Assembly (NCBI GenBank): GCA_025462945.1
Contig: JAOAPO010000494.1
Coordinates: forward strand, 1 to 50,771
DNA length: 50,771 nucleotides
Direction of reading: 5' to 3'
Source: Bryobacterales bacterium
GTDB taxonomy: Bacteria > Acidobacteriota > Terriglobia > Bryobacterales > Bryobacteraceae
This document shows positions 12,510-40,742 of this stretch, piece after piece. The notes under the pieces are model-generated. The model searched no databases. It saw only the letters and a program-made list of their open reading frames with translations, and had not been told where the DNA came from. Positions within the stretch are counted from its first letter, which is position 1. Every line of letters begins with the position of its first letter. The translations under genes and the position numbers were made by a program.

Positions 12510-13237
12510 CGGCCCGGCTGATTGCGGGCCTCTGTCTGCTTGTCTCGGGTGCGTATGCACAGGGTGACACGGAAATCTACTACGTGGGGCTGCTACGGCC
12601 CGCGGCTGAGCGGAAGCTGTTGTCGCGCGAGGACGGCGAACGACTCCAGGCAGCGCACATGGCGCATATCCGCAAGATGGCAGAAGACGGGTATCTCGTG
12701 GCGGCAGGGCCGTTCGAAGACACGCCGATTACGATCAGCGGAATTTTCATCCTCAAGGCTGCATCGCTCGAAGAAGCTCGGCGGATTGCGCGGCAGGATC
12801 CGACCATTGTGGAAAAGCGGAATACGATTGATGTGCACCCGTGGCGAGGACCGGCCGGGATCGGCGAGGAGTACCGGCGGCTGCATCAGGCTGATCCGAA
12901 GACTCCGGAGGGCATGGGGTTGCACCCGATTGTCTTCATTCGGCCTGGGCCGAAGTGGAATAGTCAAGGACCGGGAAACGCTTCCGATCTCGTGAACGGC
13001 ATGACCACCAGTTCGCAGATACTCGGTCGGGCAATCAATGGGATGAGGCGGACCGGGAAGCTGGTTGCGGGAGGTCCGGTTGAGGGTGAGGATGACCTTA
13101 AGGGCATCCTGATTTTTGACCGAATTTCGCTGAAAGTGGCAATGCAGGCGGTCAGCGAGCAACTTGAGCTGCAGAATGGCATGATGAAGGCCGAGTACCA
13201 CGAATTCTACTCGGCTGCGCACGTGTTCCCGTGGTGA
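12506..13237 (+). CDS. Secreted protein with two tandem YciI-like domains
   Basis: Signal peptide MTARLIAGLCLLVSGAYAQ. Two repeats of the YciI-like pattern (..HMAHIRKMAEDGYLVAAGPFED..GIFILKA.. and ..GKLVAGGPVEGEDDLKGILIFD..). ATGA overlap with the upstream gene. Confidence 0.55.
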   Translation: MTARLIAGLCLLVSGAYAQGDTEIYYVGLLRPAAERKLLSREDGERLQAAHMAHIRKMAEDGYLVAAGPFEDTPITISGIFILKAASLEEARRIARQDPTIVEKRNTIDVHPWRGPAGIGEEYRRLHQADPKTPEGMGLHPIVFIRPGPKWNSQGPGNASDLVNGMTTSSQILGRAINGMRRTGKLVAGGPVEGEDDLKGILIFDRISLKVAMQAVSEQLELQNGMMKAEYHEFYSAAHVFPW

Positions 13238-13256
13238 GTTGGCAAAATCGAAATGA

Positions 13257-13265
13257 TGGTATATT
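13257..13265 (+). promoter_or_regulatory. Extended -10 promoter element TGgTATATT (candidate antisense-RNA promoter, copy 1)
   Basis: TGG TATATT at 13257..13265, with a possible -35 TTGGCA at 13239..13244 (15-nt spacer). The same TGG-TAATTT element sits at the equivalent place in copy 2 (38132..38140, minus strand). Confidence 0.45.
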
Positions 13266-13317
13266 GTGTTACTGAGAGGGCCAGTGGGAGGCACCACAAG
13301 CCCTCTTCGGAAGAAGA

Positions 13318-13401
13318 CTACAGTTCAAGTTCGAACTTAATCTTCGTCCGTCGTTTCCGCCGTAAAAGCAGAAGAACGATCAGTAAAGTAAGAAAGATCA
13401 T
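13318..13401 (-). CDS. 27-aa mini-protein MIFLTLLIVLLLLRRKRRTKIKFELEL (hydrophobic N-terminus, Arg/Lys cluster, amphipathic tail); type I toxin-like
   Basis: Below the ORF-track size cutoff. ATG at 13401 is preceded by AAGGAGGG with a 5-nt spacer. A paralogous 26-aa ORF in copy 2 has the same architecture and a conserved KIK tripeptide encoded by different synonymous codons. Confidence 0.5.
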   Translation of the reverse strand: MIFLTLLIVLLLLRRKRRTKIKFELEL

Positions 13402-13413
13402 CTAGACCCTCCT

Positions 13414-13520
13414 TTCTACTCCGGTAGATTTGCGGACCCCGCCCTACACGGCGGGGTTTTGCATTTTCGGAGTCCGAAGCTCCTGATGCAAACCGCCTCT
13501 CCTCAAATCGCGGAGTAGAA
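13414..13520 (-). promoter_or_regulatory. Conserved multi-helix 5' leader RNA of the mini-ORF, copy 1
   Basis: Closing helix ttctactccg/cggagtagaa ends directly at the SD. Internal hairpins are tttgcat..ggagC(UUCG)Gactcc..atgcaaa and ccccgcc-gtgtag-ggcgggg. The same helices can be drawn in copy 2. Confidence 0.5.
13436..13467 (+). terminator. Rho-independent terminator (plus strand), candidate end of the antisense RNA
   Basis: The 7-bp GC-rich stem ccccgcc/ggcgggg has a 6-nt loop and is followed by TTTTgcaTTTT. Confidence 0.55.
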
Positions 13521-13684
13521 CAATCAGAATAGCCATTGCAGGGAGAAATGAAAATACCTCTCTCCCGAGGTGGTAGTACATCTCCCAGCACCGGCTCTTC
13601 GTCTGATATCCTTGTTCTTTCAGGAGCTTAAAGCACCCTCGACGGGGTGCGCCTAAGCTCAAACCTCCGGAGCCACTTCTCAAC

Positions 13685-37793: not shown

Positions 37794-37884
37794 TGTTTAC
37801 AACTCTATCGCGCGTTGAAGTAGTACTACTTTTCTTTTCAGCAGGGGTATGGTGATCCTGCTCCGGACCCGCTACGATGCTTAG

Positions 37885-37987
37885 TTTCTACTCCGGTCTT
37901 GCAGAGGTGAAGTTTGCAGGAGCATCCGGACTCCAAATGCAAAACCCCGCCTCACGAGCGGGGTCTGCAAATCTACTGGAGTAGAAA
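37885..37987 (+). promoter_or_regulatory. Conserved multi-helix 5' leader RNA of the mini-ORF, copy 2
   Basis: The 10-bp perfect closing helix tttctactcc(37885-94)/ggagtagaaa(37978-87) can extend by G.U and G-C pairs. Inner helices are ttgcaga/tctgcaa, tttgca..ggag..ctcc..tgcaaa and accccgc/gcggggt. The SD AAGAGG follows immediately. Confidence 0.5.
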
Positions 37988-38125
37988 GAGGTGACTGCTT
38001 ATGTTGCTCTCGATGTTGTTCGTCGGTCTGTTAATACTCAGGCTGCGGCGGCTCAAAATCAAAATCGACTTCCGATTCTGATGCCTGACCGTAAGAGGGT
38101 CAGTGTTCACCGCACTGGCCCTCTC
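37937..38125 (-). ncRNA. Predicted cis-antisense RNA of about 190 nt, fully overlapping the mini-ORF (antitoxin-like), copy 2
   Basis: Extended -10 TGGTAATTT on the minus strand (38140..38132), only 5 nt past the MBOAT stop. 5' hairpin 38124..38094. Minus-strand terminator gaccccgc-loop-gcggggTTTTgcaTTT ends near 37935. Confidence 0.35.
38001..38081 (+). CDS. 26-aa mini-protein MLLSMLFVGLLILRLRRLKIKIDFRF; type I toxin-like, paralogue of 13318..13401
   Basis: ATG 38001 is preceded by AAGAGG with a 9-nt spacer. Layout is a 13-residue hydrophobic N-terminus, an Arg cluster, then KIK plus an alternating hydrophobic/charged tail, as in copy 1. Confidence 0.5.
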   Translation: MLLSMLFVGLLILRLRRLKIKIDFRF

Positions 38126-38142
38126 AACATCAAATTACCATA

Positions 38143-39525
38143 CTAAAACTGAAAATACACGAACGGAATTGCAAGATCTGACGCCGTGAACAGCTCCAGT
38201 GCGAGCAAGGCCAGGACGGCTGCCGTTGTACGCACCCAGACCGGTCCGTTCGCCAGCCTGCCGAGAGCCTGACCGTACTCCTCCGCCAGTGCAACACCCA
38301 GCGCCGCAAGCGCAAGCCAAAGATTCGCCCCGGTGAGCAGGCTGGTCCCGGCAACGCCGGCGAACATCTCACGAAGCACAAACAGCGCCGCAGGCAGACC
38401 CTTGGCCCGGAAGAAAACCCAGCCGACATTCACGATCAGGAACGTGACCACCGTCAACGGGATCCGGGCAAGCCCGCGCTGCGCTCCCCTGCCCCAAACG
38501 ACGCGCTCGACCGCCAGGACGGCCCCGTGAAAGCCCCCCCAGATCACGAAGTTCCAGCTTGCGCCGTGCCACAGACCGCCCAGCAGCATAGTCGCCATCA
38601 GGTTCGCCCAGGTCCGAATACTGCCGCGCCGGTTGCCACCCAGCGAAATGTAAATGTAGTCTCGGAGCCAACTCGACAGCGTGATGTGCCAGCGCCGCCA
38701 GAACTCCGTGACCGACGCCGCGAGATAAGGCCGCCGGAAGTTCTCCGGGAAGTGGTACCCGAACAACAGCGCCACACCGATCGCGATGTCCGTGTAGCCC
38801 GAAAAATCGAAGAAGATCTGCAGCCCAAACGCGATCGTCCCCGACCATGCCTGCAGCAGCCCCGGCATCGCCTGAGGGTTCGCGAAATACGCATCAGCCA
38901 CCATGGCAAACCGGTCGGCGAAGACCATCTTCTTGACGAGGCCTGTCAGGATGAAGTAGACACCCTGATGCCATTCCTGAGCCGTCGGAGCACTCCAGTT
39001 GAAGTAGTCGTGGAAGAACTCCTTCGCCCGCACAATGGGCCCGGCTACCAACTGAGGAAAGAACGCCACGAAGAGCGAGTAGTCCACGTAGCTCTCGATC
39101 ACGGCCTGTTCGCCCCGATAAACGTCGATGACATACGAGATGCTCTGGAACGTGTGGAAGCTGATCCCGAGCGGCAGAATGATATCCATCGGCACCACCG
39201 GCGCCCCAGGATGCGCCACATTCAGCCACGTTTCGCGGAAGAAGTTGGCGTACTTAAACCACCCCAGCAGCCCGATATTCGCCGCCAGACTCAGCATCAG
39301 CGCCATGCGACGCGCCGGTCCTGCACGGCTCACAATCCACTTTGCCGCGAAGAAATCGATGGTGATCAGCAACAGGATGAGCACCACGAACTTCGGGTTC
39401 CAGGCCATATAGAAATAGAGGCTGGCCGCAAGCAGCAGATACCGGCGCGCGGGCTTCGGCAGCGCGTAATGCAGCCCCAGCACAACCGCCAGGAAGATCG
39501 CGAACTGAAGAGTAGTGAACAGCAT
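38143..39525 (-). CDS. MBOAT-family membrane O-acyltransferase (AlgI/DltB-like)
   Basis: 460 aa, polytopic. GISFHTFQSISYVIDVY, FFPQLVAGPIVRA, and the conserved His region RRWHITLSSWLRDYIYISLGGNR. Confidence 0.88.
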   Translation of the reverse strand: MLFTTLQFAIFLAVVLGLHYALPKPARRYLLLAASLYFYMAWNPKFVVLILLLITIDFFAAKWIVSRAGPARRMALMLSLAANIGLLGWFKYANFFRETWLNVAHPGAPVVPMDIILPLGISFHTFQSISYVIDVYRGEQAVIESYVDYSLFVAFFPQLVAGPIVRAKEFFHDYFNWSAPTAQEWHQGVYFILTGLVKKMVFADRFAMVADAYFANPQAMPGLLQAWSGTIAFGLQIFFDFSGYTDIAIGVALLFGYHFPENFRRPYLAASVTEFWRRWHITLSSWLRDYIYISLGGNRRGSIRTWANLMATMLLGGLWHGASWNFVIWGGFHGAVLAVERVVWGRGAQRGLARIPLTVVTFLIVNVGWVFFRAKGLPAALFVLREMFAGVAGTSLLTGANLWLALAALGVALAEEYGQALGRLANGPVWVRTTAAVLALLALELFTASDLAIPFVYFQF

Positions 39526-40742
39526 TACCGCGCGCCAGCCCCCGTAGTCAGGGCTCGCGCCAGCTTTTCAGAAAACAGCGGCCTGCCTGCATGATTCAGA
39601 TGCAGACCATCGGCAAACAAGTCGGGCCGTTCCAGTTCATGAAAGGTCTCGGCGGGCAGCACCACCACGTTGGGACGCCGCCTCAACTCATTCATCACAT
39701 AAGCCGGAACACCCGATTCCATGGGCGGCAGCGGACCGCGGGGCAACTCCAGAAACACCACCCGAGTCTTCGACCCCGCATAAAAATCAGCGATCTTGCC
39801 CAACCACTTCCGACGATAATCCCGCAGTATGCCAAGCTGCGGAACTGGATCGGGCAGCAGCGTCCCGCGAACGGTATCGCGTTGCCAATCCTTCAGGCCC
39901 GGCGGGTAGCTGATCTTGCGAGCGGCGTAATCGACCGTAAGACCTGCGACATCCTCCGGCTTGCCGCTATAGCCATCCAGATAGCCATGGCCTTTGTTCC
40001 GCCAGTCCTTCGCAGCGGAGAACCGGAGCGACGGCTTCTCCAGCAGTGCATGCAGGTCATCACGAAGCGGAATCCCTCGAAGAATGCACCCGGCCAGCAC
40101 CCGACTGCGAAACTCGCTGTGGAACGAAAGCGCGAACTCAGGGCAATCGGAGAGCCGCAAACGCCCCACCACATAATTCAGATCGCCGATCCGGTTCGCC
40201 TGATCCTCACCATCCACATCCGCGTAGTGATCGATCCCAAACACGACCGTCGAAAACCGCTTGCGCTCAGGGTCCGCATCGCGAAGCAGGTAGTACCAGA
40301 CGCGAGGCGTAGACCCGGCCACGCCCATATTGCGGAACTCAACGGTGTCGCCGGTTGCCGCCCGGGCCGCTCGCGCCGAGAAACCCTCGCCGATGCGCGA
40401 ATCGCCGAACACAGCGGTCTCGGTTTTCTCAGGCTCGTGCCGCAGCCAGAAGATCTGTGATTCCAGCTGACCGGCGGACGAATTCGGCTCGAGGTAGCTC
40501 ATGTACCAGCCGGAATGAAACACGAGGCCATCCACCGCGAAGAACAACAGTAAAGTGGCGAGAGACCAGATGACAGCGTCCCTGAGCGTCCACGCACGCG
40601 CTGCAGGGAACTGACGAACACGGCCGCGCTCACCGGCCACGCCGAAACCCTTACGTCGCACGCCAATCAGCGCCTGCAGATCATCGAGCTCCGCGGGCTC
40701 CATCGCCTCCACGGCGCGCCGCAGTTCGGGATCGACCGCCAT
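39525..40742 (-). CDS. Membrane-anchored partner protein of the MBOAT acyltransferase (possible SGNH/AlgJ-like)
   Basis: Its stop TAA shares one base with the MBOAT ATG (TAATG). One TM (VIWSLATLLLFFAV). VFGDSRIGEGF resembles SGNH block I. The function is inferred from context. Confidence 0.4.
   Translation of the reverse strand: MAVDPELRRAVEAMEPAELDDLQALIGVRRKGFGVAGERGRVRQFPAARAWTLRDAVIWSLATLLLFFAVDGLVFHSGWYMSYLEPNSSAGQLESQIFWLRHEPEKTETAVFGDSRIGEGFSARAARAATGDTVEFRNMGVAGSTPRVWYYLLRDADPERKRFSTVVFGIDHYADVDGEDQANRIGDLNYVVGRLRLSDCPEFALSFHSEFRSRVLAGCILRGIPLRDDLHALLEKPSLRFSAAKDWRNKGHGYLDGYSGKPEDVAGLTVDYAARKISYPPGLKDWQRDTVRGTLLPDPVPQLGILRDYRRKWLGKIADFYAGSKTRVVFLELPRGPLPPMESGVPAYVMNELRRRPNVVVLPAETFHELERPDLFADGLHLNHAGRPLFSEKLARALTTGAGAR

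What the first reader, a model, noticed from the sequence alone, without database searches (positions are those of the whole stretch)
37820..38140. Copy 2 of the module; comparing the copies shows protein-level selection on the mini-ORF
Between the GHL6-like gene and the MBOAT gene, the same ordered elements recur in the opposite orientation:
- leader closing helix, 37885-94 paired with 37978-87
- SD AAGAGG
- 26-codon ORF 38001..38081 (MLLSMLFVGLLILRLRRLKIKIDFRF)
- 3' hairpin, 38094..38124
- minus-strand extended -10 TGGTAATTT, 38140..38132
- minus-strand terminator, about 37965..37935

The two peptides share the same architecture: 13 hydrophobic residues, then an Arg/Lys cluster, then KIK plus a strictly alternating hydrophobic/charged tail (KIKFELEL versus KIKIDFRF). 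The shared K-I-K is encoded aag-att-aag in copy 1 and aaa-atc-aaa in copy 2. That is three consecutive synonymous third-position changes, as expected for a translated sequence under purifying selection.

By contrast, the non-coding leader and the hairpins are more conserved at the nucleotide level than the ORF. In both copies the antisense promoter sits immediately after the stop codon of a co-directional upstream gene, 5 nt after the MBOAT stop here.
Basis: seen in the sequence. Interest (0 to 1): 0.85.

Follow-up and report, generated by a model that had tools for sequence, protein, structure and literature searches.

The report
Antisense-controlled mini-peptide gene, toxin-antitoxin-like
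This is a roughly 300-bp gene module found in soil and peat Acidobacteria (Bryobacterales): a tightly folded mRNA for a 26-residue greasy, positively charged peptide, overlapped by a predicted antisense RNA, which looks like a new family of type I toxin-antitoxin systems in a phylum where none has been described.

Summary
The module has a second copy in the window (13250-13560, minus strand). I found 45 distinct copies in Bryobacterales/Terriglobia MAGs and peat, soil and lake metagenomes, and none in plasmids, phages or viral contigs.

- **The ORF looks translated.** It keeps an ATG, a Shine-Dalgarno and 24-28 codons in 36 of 45 copies. It has the lowest dN/dS of the six frames (0.37), and codon position 2 is the most conserved.
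- **The sense RNA (about 250 nt) is highly structured, with covariation.**
  - a 5' three-way junction;
  - a hairpin that sequesters the Shine-Dalgarno;
  - a long-range helix pairing codons 4-6 with the 7 nt after the 3' hairpin;
- a junction-to-loop kissing contact between leader and 3' hairpin.
- **An antisense RNA of about 190 nt is predicted.** The opposite strand has a conserved TGnTAnnnT promoter element and an intrinsic terminator.

No Rfam, Pfam or NCBIfam family matches.

Best reading: a new, non-homologous type I toxin-antitoxin-like family with a hok-like closed mRNA. Toxicity and transcription are untested. Two caveats apply. The alternating C-terminal tail is also an RNA hairpin. 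The position right after a neighbour's stop codon is common but not universal.

The parts
37873..37878 (+). Copy 2: predicted sense -10 hexamer TACGAT. The transcription start is predicted at about 37884-37886, the first bases of P1.
   Evidence: A TAnnnT hexamer lies 5-7 nt before P1 in nearly all copies, with a TTGACA-like element 17-18 nt upstream (listing). This is a motif-level prediction only; the strict sigma-70 scan finds nothing here.
37885..37987 (+). Copy 2: 5' leader three-way junction. P1 37885-97 with 37975-87; P2 37899-905 with 37964-70; J2/3 37906-12; P3a 37913-18 with 37938-43; P3b 37919-22 with 37931-34; P4 37945-51 with 37956-63.
   Evidence: MFE fold z = -7.3. On 36 copies, 91.2% of cells pair, against 39-58% when the partners are slid. 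Twelve pairs show compensatory changes, and G.U pairs valid only on this strand occur in P1 and P3b.
37988..38011 (+). Copy 2: hairpin that sequesters the Shine-Dalgarno. Shine-Dalgarno GAGG 37988-91 pairs with codons 2-4 (38003-11); the AUG (38001-03) sits in or at the loop.
   Evidence: Helix 6: 84.6% paired, 3 pairs with compensatory change, many G.U. The probability that the Shine-Dalgarno is unpaired averages 0.04 over 27 copies.
38001..38081 (+). Copy 2: 26-codon ORF, MLLSMLFVGLLILRLRRLKIKIDFRF.
   Evidence: The ORF has 24-28 codons in 36 of 45 copies; 30 unique coding sequences were aligned. Median dN/dS is 0.37, the lowest of six frames. Differences at codon positions 1/2/3 are 0.41/0.19/0.44. 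Length variants among intact copies differ by whole codons.
38012..38018 (+). Copy 2: 5' strand of the long-range helix (GATGTTG, codons 4-6), pairing with 38125-38131.
   Evidence: Found independently by RNAalifold. Pair types at one position are AU 15, GC 8, CG 2, UA 2, GU 1.
38063..38077 (+). Copy 2: hairpin inside the C-terminal codons (AATCG-ACTTC-CGATT).
   Evidence: Read directly from the sequences. Equivalent hairpins with different sequences occur in other copies, for example AGATCG-AAAT-CGATCT, AAGTTCG-AAAT-CGAACTT and GTTCA-CAAT-TGAAC.
38094..38124 (+). Copy 2: 3' hairpin. The loop TTCACC (38106-11) is complementary to leader junction J2/3, GGTGAA (37906-11).
   Evidence: Hairpin covariation is. 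U.G and G.U are the commonest pairs at two positions, so the helix is better on the sense strand. Loop-junction complementarity: own copy -7.56 against other copies -4.48 kcal/mol, with 0 of 20000 permutations as good.
38125..38131 (+). Copy 2: 3' strand of the long-range helix (CAACATC). The sense RNA must reach at least this point, giving a length of 247 nt or more.
38132..38140 (-). Copy 2: predicted antisense extended -10, TGGTAATTT. The antisense transcription start is predicted at about 38126-38124.
   Evidence: Over 30 copies, T, G, T, A and T at the defining positions occur in 28, 28, 30, 24 and 25 copies, while the n positions vary. Nothing is conserved further upstream.
37935..37963 (-). 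Copy 2: antisense intrinsic terminator. The stem is the complement of P4 and is followed by TTTTGCATTT. The predicted antisense RNA is about 190 nt (38125 to 37936).
   Evidence: Terminator scan. P4 is almost purely Watson-Crick, so it folds on both strands. Antisense fold: 5' hairpin, an unpaired stretch complementary to the Shine-Dalgarno and first codons, a small hairpin, then the terminator; z = -4.1.
13257..13560 (-). Copy 1 of the same module, sense on the minus strand. GGTATTTT motif 13559-52; -10 TATTCT 13531-26; P1 13520-11 with 13423-14; J2/3 GAGGCG 13499-94; P4 13456-50 with 13443-37; Shine-Dalgarno 13412-07; ORF 13401-13318; long-range helix 13386-81 with 13274-69; 3' hairpin 13305-13276 with loop TGCCTC 13293-88.
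   Evidence: z = -7.5; 124.8 bits; kissing duplex -9.8 kcal/mol.
13257..13469 (+). Copy 1: predicted antisense RNA gene. Extended -10 TGGTATATT at 13257-65; terminator stem-loop 13434-59 plus a T-run.

Best explanation

**Sense RNA.** A sense promoter makes an mRNA of about 250 nt. It encodes a 24-28 residue peptide: about 13 hydrophobic residues, an Arg/Lys cluster, then a short alternating tail. The mRNA folds into a closed, translationally silent form:
- the 5' end is locked in a three-way junction;
- the Shine-Dalgarno pairs with codons 2-4;
- codons 4-6 pair with the 7 nt that follow the 3' hairpin;
- the 3' hairpin loop docks on junction J2/3 of the leader.

**Antisense RNA.** From the other strand, an extended -10 promoter just beyond the 3' hairpin drives an RNA of about 190 nt. 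It is complementary to the 3' hairpin, the whole ORF, the Shine-Dalgarno and the 3' half of the leader, and it ends at a terminator that is the mirror image of P4. Its central region is predicted to be unpaired and covers the ribosome-binding site.

**Shown here:**
- conservation of the ORF, with a coding signature;
- the sense-RNA helices and the kissing contact, by covariation;
- conservation of the antisense promoter and terminator motifs.

**Inferred, not shown:**
- both RNAs are actually made;
- antisense pairing blocks translation or triggers cleavage;
- the peptide inserts into the membrane and is harmful when made;
- J2/3, which has the same sequence as the antisense RNA's 5' loop, shields the mRNA's 3' loop from the antisense RNA in the closed form. 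This would parallel the full-length hok mRNA, which is neither translated nor bound by Sok.
For: **Family.** There are 45 distinct copies in Bryobacterales/Terriglobia MAGs and environmental contigs. Covariance-model scores are 111-161 bits. Tandem pairs occur in L007 and L010, and the window holds two copies within 50 kb. Such multiplicity is typical of chromosomal type I loci (my own knowledge).

**Coding.**
- ATG plus GGAGG/GGGGG, and 24-28 codons, in 36 of 45 copies.
- dN/dS 0.37 in frame, against 0.57-2.7 in the other five frames.
- Codon position 2 is the most conserved.
- Length variants among intact copies differ by whole codons.

**Sense RNA.**
- Leader helices: 91% paired, against 39-58% when slid, with 12 compensatory pairs.
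- Long-range helix and 3' hairpin: 89% paired, against 31-57% when slid, with 13 compensatory pairs. RNAalifold predicts both independently.
- Kissing contact: 0 of 20000 permutations as good.
- Shine-Dalgarno unpaired probability 0.04.
- G.U pairs make P1, P3b, the Shine-Dalgarno hairpin and the 3' hairpin specific to the sense strand. P4 is Watson-Crick and usable on both strands.

**Antisense.**
- TGnTAnnnT is conserved exactly at the promoter-defining positions, and conservation stops upstream of it.
- A canonical terminator is present in both window copies.
- The predicted antisense RNA has an open central region opposite the ribosome-binding site.

**Decay.** About 20% of copies are disrupted. 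Frequent inactivation would fit a harmful gene, which is my inference.

**Precedent.** The closed hok mRNA has a 5'-3' long-distance interaction and a sequestered Shine-Dalgarno (PMC9841398).
Against: - There is no experimental or transcriptomic evidence that either RNA is made or that the peptide is toxic.
- The peptide's hydrophobic run of 13 residues is short for a membrane span.
- No canonical terminator follows the sense RNA, so its 3' end is undefined.
- Removing the 3' domain in silico barely frees the Shine-Dalgarno (0.04 to 0.12). A hok-style activation by 3' trimming is therefore not supported by thermodynamics alone.
- dN/dS of 0.37 is only moderately low. Nearly every codon also lies in an RNA helix, so RNA and protein constraints are entangled.
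- The module is absent from plasmids and phages, so there is no sign of an addiction role.
- My searches were anchored on one invariant 20-22-mer. The sample is therefore biased towards one branch of the family.
Confidence: 0.6

Rival explanations
1. The peptide is an ordinary, non-toxic small membrane protein, for example a regulator of a transporter or sensor kinase. Its synthesis is merely tightly controlled by mRNA structure and a cis-antisense RNA. On this view the module is a regulated small-protein gene, not a toxin-antitoxin pair.
For: Every structural and coding observation fits this reading equally well. Loci are chromosomal only. The peptide is conserved across many lineages. From my own knowledge, many bacterial peptides of 20-50 residues with this shape are benign regulators.
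Against: The neighbouring genes differ from locus to locus, and none of six window flank proteins has a tblastn match in any other locus. A dedicated partner protein would usually be linked. Tandem duplications, several paralogs per genome and about 20% disrupted copies are more typical of selfish or harmful loci. The several layers of translational silencing seem excessive for a harmless peptide, though this is inference.
Confidence: 0.22
2. The functional product is the structured RNA itself: a 250-nt non-coding or dual-function RNA, or the 190-nt antisense RNA acting in trans. On this view the mini-ORF is secondary or tolerated.
For: The leader is better conserved than the ORF. The 20-mer AAATCTACYGGAGTAGAAAG is more conserved than pairing requires: its NNNN positions were always CCGG or CTGG in the metagenome hits, while the 5' partner strand varies. 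There is extensive covariation, including a tertiary contact. The C-terminal codons double as a hairpin.
Against: RNA constraints alone would not keep an ATG at the correct distance from a Shine-Dalgarno. They would not keep U at the second position of about 12 consecutive codons, whole-codon length variants, or a fixed stop position. No Rfam family matches on either strand.
Confidence: 0.1
3. The leader three-way junction is a riboswitch-like or thermosensor-like sensor that controls translation of the mini-ORF. The opposite-strand motifs would then be incidental, or would serve the neighbouring gene as its terminator.
For: The junction nucleotides of the three-way junction are conserved, the variable-length P3b stem resembles aptamer architecture, and the Shine-Dalgarno lies immediately 3' of P1. 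Four TGCA-core strands, and a local hairpin UCUAC-YGGA-GUAGA that is an alternative to P1, permit alternative folds. In both window copies a convergent gene ends just before the antisense promoter.
Against: J2/3 is not an invariant ligand pocket: it covaries with the 3' loop. The antisense promoter positions are conserved even where the neighbouring gene is not convergent, which is 8 of 20 scorable loci. No known riboswitch family matches.
Confidence: 0.05
4. The module is a miniature mobile or repetitive element, of the MITE or REP type, that happens to carry hairpins.
For: There are several copies in unrelated contexts. In copy 2 a 22-nt imperfect inverted repeat (73% complementary) flanks the module.
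Against: The copy number per genome is low. No equivalent terminal repeat was reported around copy 1. No tRNA lies within any of 28 loci or in the window. Internal conservation follows coding and RNA-pairing rules rather than terminal repeats.
Confidence: 0.03

Closest known systems
hok/Sok (plasmid R1 and enterobacterial chromosomes), type I toxin-antitoxin
   Same: A small hydrophobic peptide is encoded on a highly structured mRNA. The full-length form is closed by a 5'-3' long-distance interaction and has a sequestered Shine-Dalgarno, and a cis-antisense RNA is present (PMC9841398). Here, the long-range helix, the J2/3-loop kissing contact and the Shine-Dalgarno hairpin would play the analogous roles.
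   Different: There is no sequence or family match. Hok is about 50 residues and is translated through the overlapping mok frame; this module has a single 24-28 codon ORF. Sok covers only the 5' region, whereas the predicted antisense RNA here spans the whole ORF and ends inside the leader. The closure here is a loop-junction kiss plus a helix from the coding region to the 3' tail, not a pairing of the two ends. Activation by 3' trimming is not supported in silico.
ibs/Sib (E. coli), type I toxin-antitoxin
   Same: A very short hydrophobic peptide, an antisense RNA fully overlapping the ORF, and multiple and tandem chromosomal copies. These features of ibs/Sib are from my own knowledge (Fozo et al. 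2008, 2010).
   Different: Ibs has 18-19 residues and no basic cluster or tail. It has no long structured 5' leader or 5'-3' contact. It occurs in Enterobacteria, and there is no homology.
aapA/IsoA (Helicobacter pylori), type I toxin-antitoxin
   Same: A roughly 30-residue peptide whose mRNA folding controls translation (abstract of PMC6733600, listed). From my own knowledge, its primary transcript is kept inactive by a 5'-3' long-distance interaction and by Shine-Dalgarno-sequestering hairpins.
   Different: From my own knowledge, IsoA overlaps the 5' part only and the active mRNA arises by 3' processing. The phylum is different and there is no homology.
msoT1/msoA1 (Microcystis aeruginosa), candidate type I toxin-antitoxin
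   Same: A candidate type I locus found outside Proteobacteria, Firmicutes and Tenericutes, the only phyla with known type I systems (PMC12390103).
   Different: It is cyanobacterial and unrelated in sequence, and it comes from a single genome. The present family rests on comparative evidence from 45 copies but has no experiments.

Membership tests
Type I toxin-antitoxin system (class) | A small protein (under 60 residues), usually hydrophobic, encoded by its own ORF with a ribosome-binding site | tested here: met
   A 24-28 codon ORF with ATG and GGAGG/GGGGG, encoding about 13 hydrophobic residues followed by an Arg/Lys cluster.
Type I toxin-antitoxin system (class) | The protein is toxic or growth-arresting when expressed | not testable with these tools
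   The only hint is indirect: about 20% of copies are disrupted.
Type I toxin-antitoxin system (class) | An antisense RNA gene that overlaps, or is complementary to, the toxin mRNA | tested here: met
   Met at the level of sequence signals only. TGnTAnnnT is conserved at the defining positions in 24-30 of 30 copies. An intrinsic terminator is found on the antisense strand in both window copies. The predicted 190-nt RNA is fully complementary to the ORF and Shine-Dalgarno. Transcription itself could not be tested.
Type I toxin-antitoxin system (class) | The antitoxin RNA represses toxin synthesis by base pairing | not testable with these tools
   Complementarity follows from the cis arrangement. 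Any effect on translation or stability is inferred.
Type I toxin-antitoxin system (class) | The toxin mRNA is folded so that translation is intrinsically restrained (sequestered Shine-Dalgarno, long-range closure). This is common but not universal. | tested here: met
   Shine-Dalgarno hairpin, long-range helix and J2/3-loop contact.
Any described type I toxin or antitoxin family (Hok, Ldr, Ibs, Fst, TisB, ShoB, ZorO, AapA and others; Sok, Sib, OrzO and others) | A sequence or profile match to the family model | tested here: not met
   Pfam gives no hit at E up to 10. NCBIfam gives only noise. Rfam gives nothing at the gathering threshold; the best sub-threshold match is OrzO-P at 20 bits against a cutoff of 60.
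Riboswitch or cis-regulatory leader | A conserved aptamer whose junction nucleotides are invariant and which is coupled to an expression platform | tested here: inconclusive
   A three-way junction next to the Shine-Dalgarno exists. However, J2/3 covaries with the 3' loop rather than being invariant. No Rfam match.
MITE or REP-type repeat | Terminal inverted repeats or target-site duplications, with high copy number | tested here: not met
   Only copy 2 shows a weak 22-nt inverted repeat. One to three copies were found per genome with the search pattern. Internal conservation follows coding and pairing rules.

The most novel reading that the evidence does not exclude
The 5' three-way junction may be a switch. 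By docking its J2/3 strand on the 3' hairpin loop, it would hide that loop from the antisense RNA, because J2/3 has the same sequence as the antisense RNA's 5' loop. A signal such as temperature, a ligand, a ribosome or RNA processing would release it. That release would decide between antisense capture and translation of a membrane-active peptide. On this reading the module is both the first type I toxin-antitoxin family of Acidobacteriota and a new kind of 'antitoxin-mimic' RNA lock.
Probability: 0.12. Interest if true: 0.8.

Novelty: new variant of a known kind. Interest (0 to 1): 0.62.

Why it matters
Type I toxin-antitoxin systems are reported from only three phyla plus one cyanobacterial candidate. 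That narrowness is suspected to be a search artefact (PMC12390103; PMC5367252).

A non-homologous family in Bryobacterales, an order with many MAGs and contigs from peat and soil, would extend the class to Acidobacteriota. It would also show that hok-like closed-mRNA logic arose again with different parts.

The comparative data give precise predictions that can be tested by mutation:
- compensatory changes in the long-range helix;
- compensatory changes in the J2/3-loop contact;
- mutation of the antisense -10 element.

The family is also a compact natural RNA device that could be reused for post-transcriptional control.

Tried and rejected
- **Rfam.** Nothing at the gathering threshold over the whole window. 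At E up to 10 on the locus there was only noise.
- **Pfam and NCBIfam on four peptides.** No real hit.
- **The look-up of encoding contigs with the MBOAT protein.** Not on record.
- **The search for homologous proteins with the peptide.** I could not check whether any database annotates the peptide.
- **Plasmids, phages and viral contigs.** No match.
- **Synteny.** tblastn of six window flank proteins against all loci found nothing, so no orthologous site was available for an empty-site comparison.
- **tRNA adjacency.** None.
- **RNAalifold on the raw leader alignment.** It returned a different, weaker consensus. The P1 5' strand was misaligned, and four strands share a palindromic TGCA core. 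I therefore scored an explicit structure instead.
- **First extraction of J2/3 by regular expression.** It picked the wrong segments. I discarded that result and redid the extraction from alignment columns.
- **Crude GC3-based neighbour calls.** They picked shadow ORFs. I replaced them with a codon log-odds model.
- **In-silico 3' truncation.** It did not open the Shine-Dalgarno, so I do not claim hok-style activation by processing.
- **Antisense-strand ORF.** One antisense frame is stop-free in all 30 copies. I attribute this to the peptide's composition, which almost completely lacks Tyr, His and Gln. Its dN/dS (0.57) is higher than that of the sense frame.
Full report
**1. The observation**

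- P1 helix 37885-97 with 37975-87;
- Shine-Dalgarno AAGAGG 37986-91;
- a 26-codon ORF 38001-38081;
- a 3' hairpin 38094-38124;
- TGGTAATTT on the minus strand at 38140-38132;
- a minus-strand terminator, stem 37963-37945 followed by TTTTGCATTT.

A second copy lies at window 13250-13560 in the opposite orientation. It has the same order of parts and a terminator on its antisense strand. Both copies fold far better than shuffled controls, with z-scores of -7.3 and -7.5.

Between the two copies the leader is 72% identical, the 3' hairpin 72% and the ORF only 46%. Identical bases at codon positions 1/2/3 number 13/19/7 of 27.

**2. A family, not a coincidence**

I scanned one genome per species with AAATCTACNGGAGTAGAAAG. 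This gave 12 loci in Bryobacteraceae, Bryobacterales or Terriglobia MAGs and one chance hit in a methanogen.

A metagenome scan with the inner four P1 positions left free gave about 34 further copies, apparently from peat, soil and lake samples. In all of them the free positions read CCGG or CTGG.

After removing identical sequences there are 45 copies. A covariance model built from 36 of them scores 50 sites at 111-161 bits. Nothing else in 542 kb scores above 24 bits. The model also recovered one degraded copy that lacks the search pattern.

Other features of the family:
- Tandem pairs occur in L007 and L010.
- Two MAGs carry copies on two contigs.
- No copy was found in plasmids, phages or viral contigs.
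- No tRNA lies nearby.
- The window's flanking genes are not found next to any other copy.

**3. The ORF**

Thirty-six of the 45 copies keep an ATG 6-9 nt after GGAGG/GGGGG and an ORF of 24-28 codons. There are two peptide subtypes...R(K/T)RRTKLKIEIDL and ...RLRRL(R/K)IKIDF(K/R/W)F.

Evidence for coding, over 30 unique coding sequences:
- Mean pairwise differences at codon positions 1/2/3 are 0.41/0.19/0.44.
- Median Nei-Gojobori dN/dS is 0.37 in the proposed frame, against 0.57-2.7 in the other five frames.
- Length variants among intact copies differ by whole codons.

Nine copies are disrupted:
- L005, L026 and L050 have a frameshift. The L005 sequence is identical in three contigs.
- L017 and L057 have lost the stop codon.
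- L072 has a premature stop.
- L032 is truncated.
- L081 carries an insertion.
- L009 has a leader but no ORF.

One caveat applies. The last six codons are also a hairpin, for example AGAUCG-AAAU-CGAUCU, AAGUUCG-AAAU-CGAACUU or GUUCA-CAAU-UGAAC (sequences). Hydrophobic codons (nUn) pair naturally with charged codons (nAn). The alternating tail is therefore not independent evidence of selection on the protein.

The peptide matches no Pfam or NCBIfam model.

**4. The sense RNA**

I scored an explicit structure on the 36-sequence leader alignment: P1, P2, P3a, P3b, P4 and a hairpin pairing the Shine-Dalgarno with codons 2-4. Results:
- 91.2% of cells pair, against 39-58% when the partners are slid.
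- Twelve pairs show compensatory changes.
- P1, P3b and the Shine-Dalgarno hairpin contain many G.U pairs, which would be A.C mismatches on the other strand.
- P4 is almost purely Watson-Crick.

*Long-range helix.* Codons 4-6 pair with the 7 nt directly after the 3' hairpin. The sequences change together across copies:
- GATGCTG/CAGCATC
- GATGTTG/CAACATC (window copy 2)
- GGTGCTG/CAGCACC
- CTGCTG/CAGCAG
- GATACTG/CAGTATC
- GTTGCT/AGCAAC
- TTACTG/CAGTAA (window copy 1)

One of its pairs reads AU 15, GC 8, CG 2, UA 2, GU 1. RNAalifold finds the helix independently.

*Kissing contact.* The loop of the 3' hairpin is complementary to leader junction J2/3, with at least eight different sequence pairs. 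Examples are GGTGAA/TTCACC in copy 2, GAGGCG/TGCCTC in copy 1, GGTCGTA/TACGACC, GTCGTG/CACGAC and GGTTGCG/CGCAACC. The own-copy duplex averages -7.56 kcal/mol, against -4.48 for mismatched copies, and 0 of 20000 permutations do as well.

The sense RNA therefore runs at least from P1 to the end of the long-range helix, about 245-253 nt, and folds as one closed unit. The predicted probability that the Shine-Dalgarno is unpaired is 0.04.

**5. The antisense side**

I read the region beyond the 3' hairpin on the opposite strand. It shows T-G-n-T-A-n-n-n-T, with the five defining positions conserved in 28, 28, 30, 24 and 25 of 30 copies. The n positions vary, and all conservation ends upstream of it. 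That pattern is what a promoter leaves, rather than an RNA motif.

The hexamer ends 0-3 nt before the reverse complement of the long-range helix strand. The antisense start therefore falls at the base of the hairpin, and the long-range helix is a feature of the sense RNA only.

The mirror image of P4 followed by UUUUGCAUUU is a canonical intrinsic terminator. The predicted antisense RNA of about 190 nt has a 5' hairpin with internal mismatches, an open central stretch opposite the Shine-Dalgarno and first codons, a small hairpin and the terminator. Its z-score of -4.1 is much weaker than that of the sense RNA.

**6. Context**

With a codon-usage model, the gene beyond the 3' end is convergent in 12 scorable loci and co-directional with the mini-ORF in 8. 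Several of those 8 appear to be the same locus in related genomes.

**7. Mechanism**

The anatomy matches the logic of type I toxin-antitoxin systems. It is closest to hok/Sok, whose full-length mRNA is closed by a 5'-3' interaction, has a sequestered Shine-Dalgarno, and is neither translated nor bound by the antisense RNA until it is remodelled (PMC9841398).

In this module J2/3 has the same sequence as the antisense RNA's 5' loop. Docking of J2/3 on the mRNA's 3' loop would therefore compete with the first antisense contact. This is inference.

In-silico removal of the 3' domain raises Shine-Dalgarno accessibility only from 0.04 to 0.12. I do not claim activation by 3' trimming.

Toxicity, transcription of both RNAs and repression by the antisense RNA were not tested.

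**8. Comparison and novelty**

No Rfam, Pfam or NCBIfam family matches. Literature searches found no type I system described in Acidobacteria or Bryobacter.

Reviews state that type I systems are known only from Proteobacteria, Firmicutes and Tenericutes, with one cyanobacterial candidate from 2025 (PMC5367252; PMC12390103).

I classify the module as a new, non-homologous variant of a known kind. [quoted passage not shown]

**9. Limits**

All copies were found through one invariant motif, so the apparent invariance of that motif says nothing. Related sequences are not independent, although the many distinct compensatory states argue against simple inheritance. The 3' end of the sense RNA is undefined. 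There are no expression data.

Noticed in passing
window 37899-37970; alignment A2 columns 18-38, 65-71 and 95-115: Four leader strands share a palindromic TGCA core (TTGCAG, TTTGCA, ATGCAAA, CTGCAAA). The invariant 20-mer can also form a local hairpin, UCUAC-YGGA-GUAGA, instead of P1. CUCC of P3b could pair with the Shine-Dalgarno. RNAalifold chose this alternative set of pairings, so alternative or metastable folds are possible.
   Followed up: partly
L081:5206-5300: The ORF of this copy is interrupted by an insertion of about 50 nt, flanked by a 13-nt near-perfect direct repeat (cttcttatgctgt / cttctgatgctgt). It looks like a duplication or a footprint.
   Followed up: no
L043:1228-1397, L064:13-174, L081:5069-5238, L072:1149-1348: In L043, L064 and L081 the P3b stem is extended by 10-20 nt of extra paired sequence. 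L072 has a whole extra hairpin of about 45 nt between P3 and P4. This variable-length stem is tolerated by the covariance model, which scores these copies at 111-120 bits.
   Followed up: partly
L009:7532-7685: This copy has the leader and Shine-Dalgarno only. Unrelated sequence follows directly and there is no ORF, so it looks like a truncated remnant.
   Followed up: no
window 13552-13559 and 37846-37856; 33-36 nt upstream of the sense -10 in many loci: A conserved motif lies upstream of the predicted sense promoter: GA(G/T)GTAT(T/A)TAC in one subgroup and G(G)nAATAGC(G/C) in another. It overlaps the -35 position. It may be the -35 with an upstream extension, or a regulator binding site.
   Followed up: partly
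window 37835-37856 and 38134-38155: A 22-nt imperfect inverted repeat (73% complementary) brackets copy 2, and both arms contain TATGGTrAT. No equivalent terminal repeat was reported around copy 1. It is probably two promoter-like AT-rich ends rather than transposon termini.
   Followed up: partly
L050:855-1011 (-) and L050:2218-2370 (+): Two divergently oriented, degraded copies lie about 1.2 kb apart on one short contig, both with frameshifts. They may be decaying paralogs or come from an error-prone assembly.
   Followed up: no
window 38143-40742 (-): The MBOAT gene's start codon overlaps the stop codon of the preceding 405-residue ORF by one base, at 39525. That ORF has no Pfam hit. The arrangement looks like an operon, perhaps a polysaccharide O-acylation pair.
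   Followed up: no
window 13205-13215: TTCTACTCGGC inside the 3' end of the YCII gene (plus strand) is 91% complementary to GCGGAGTAGAA at 13510-13520, the plus-strand complement of copy 1's P1 5' strand. It is probably chance.
   Followed up: no
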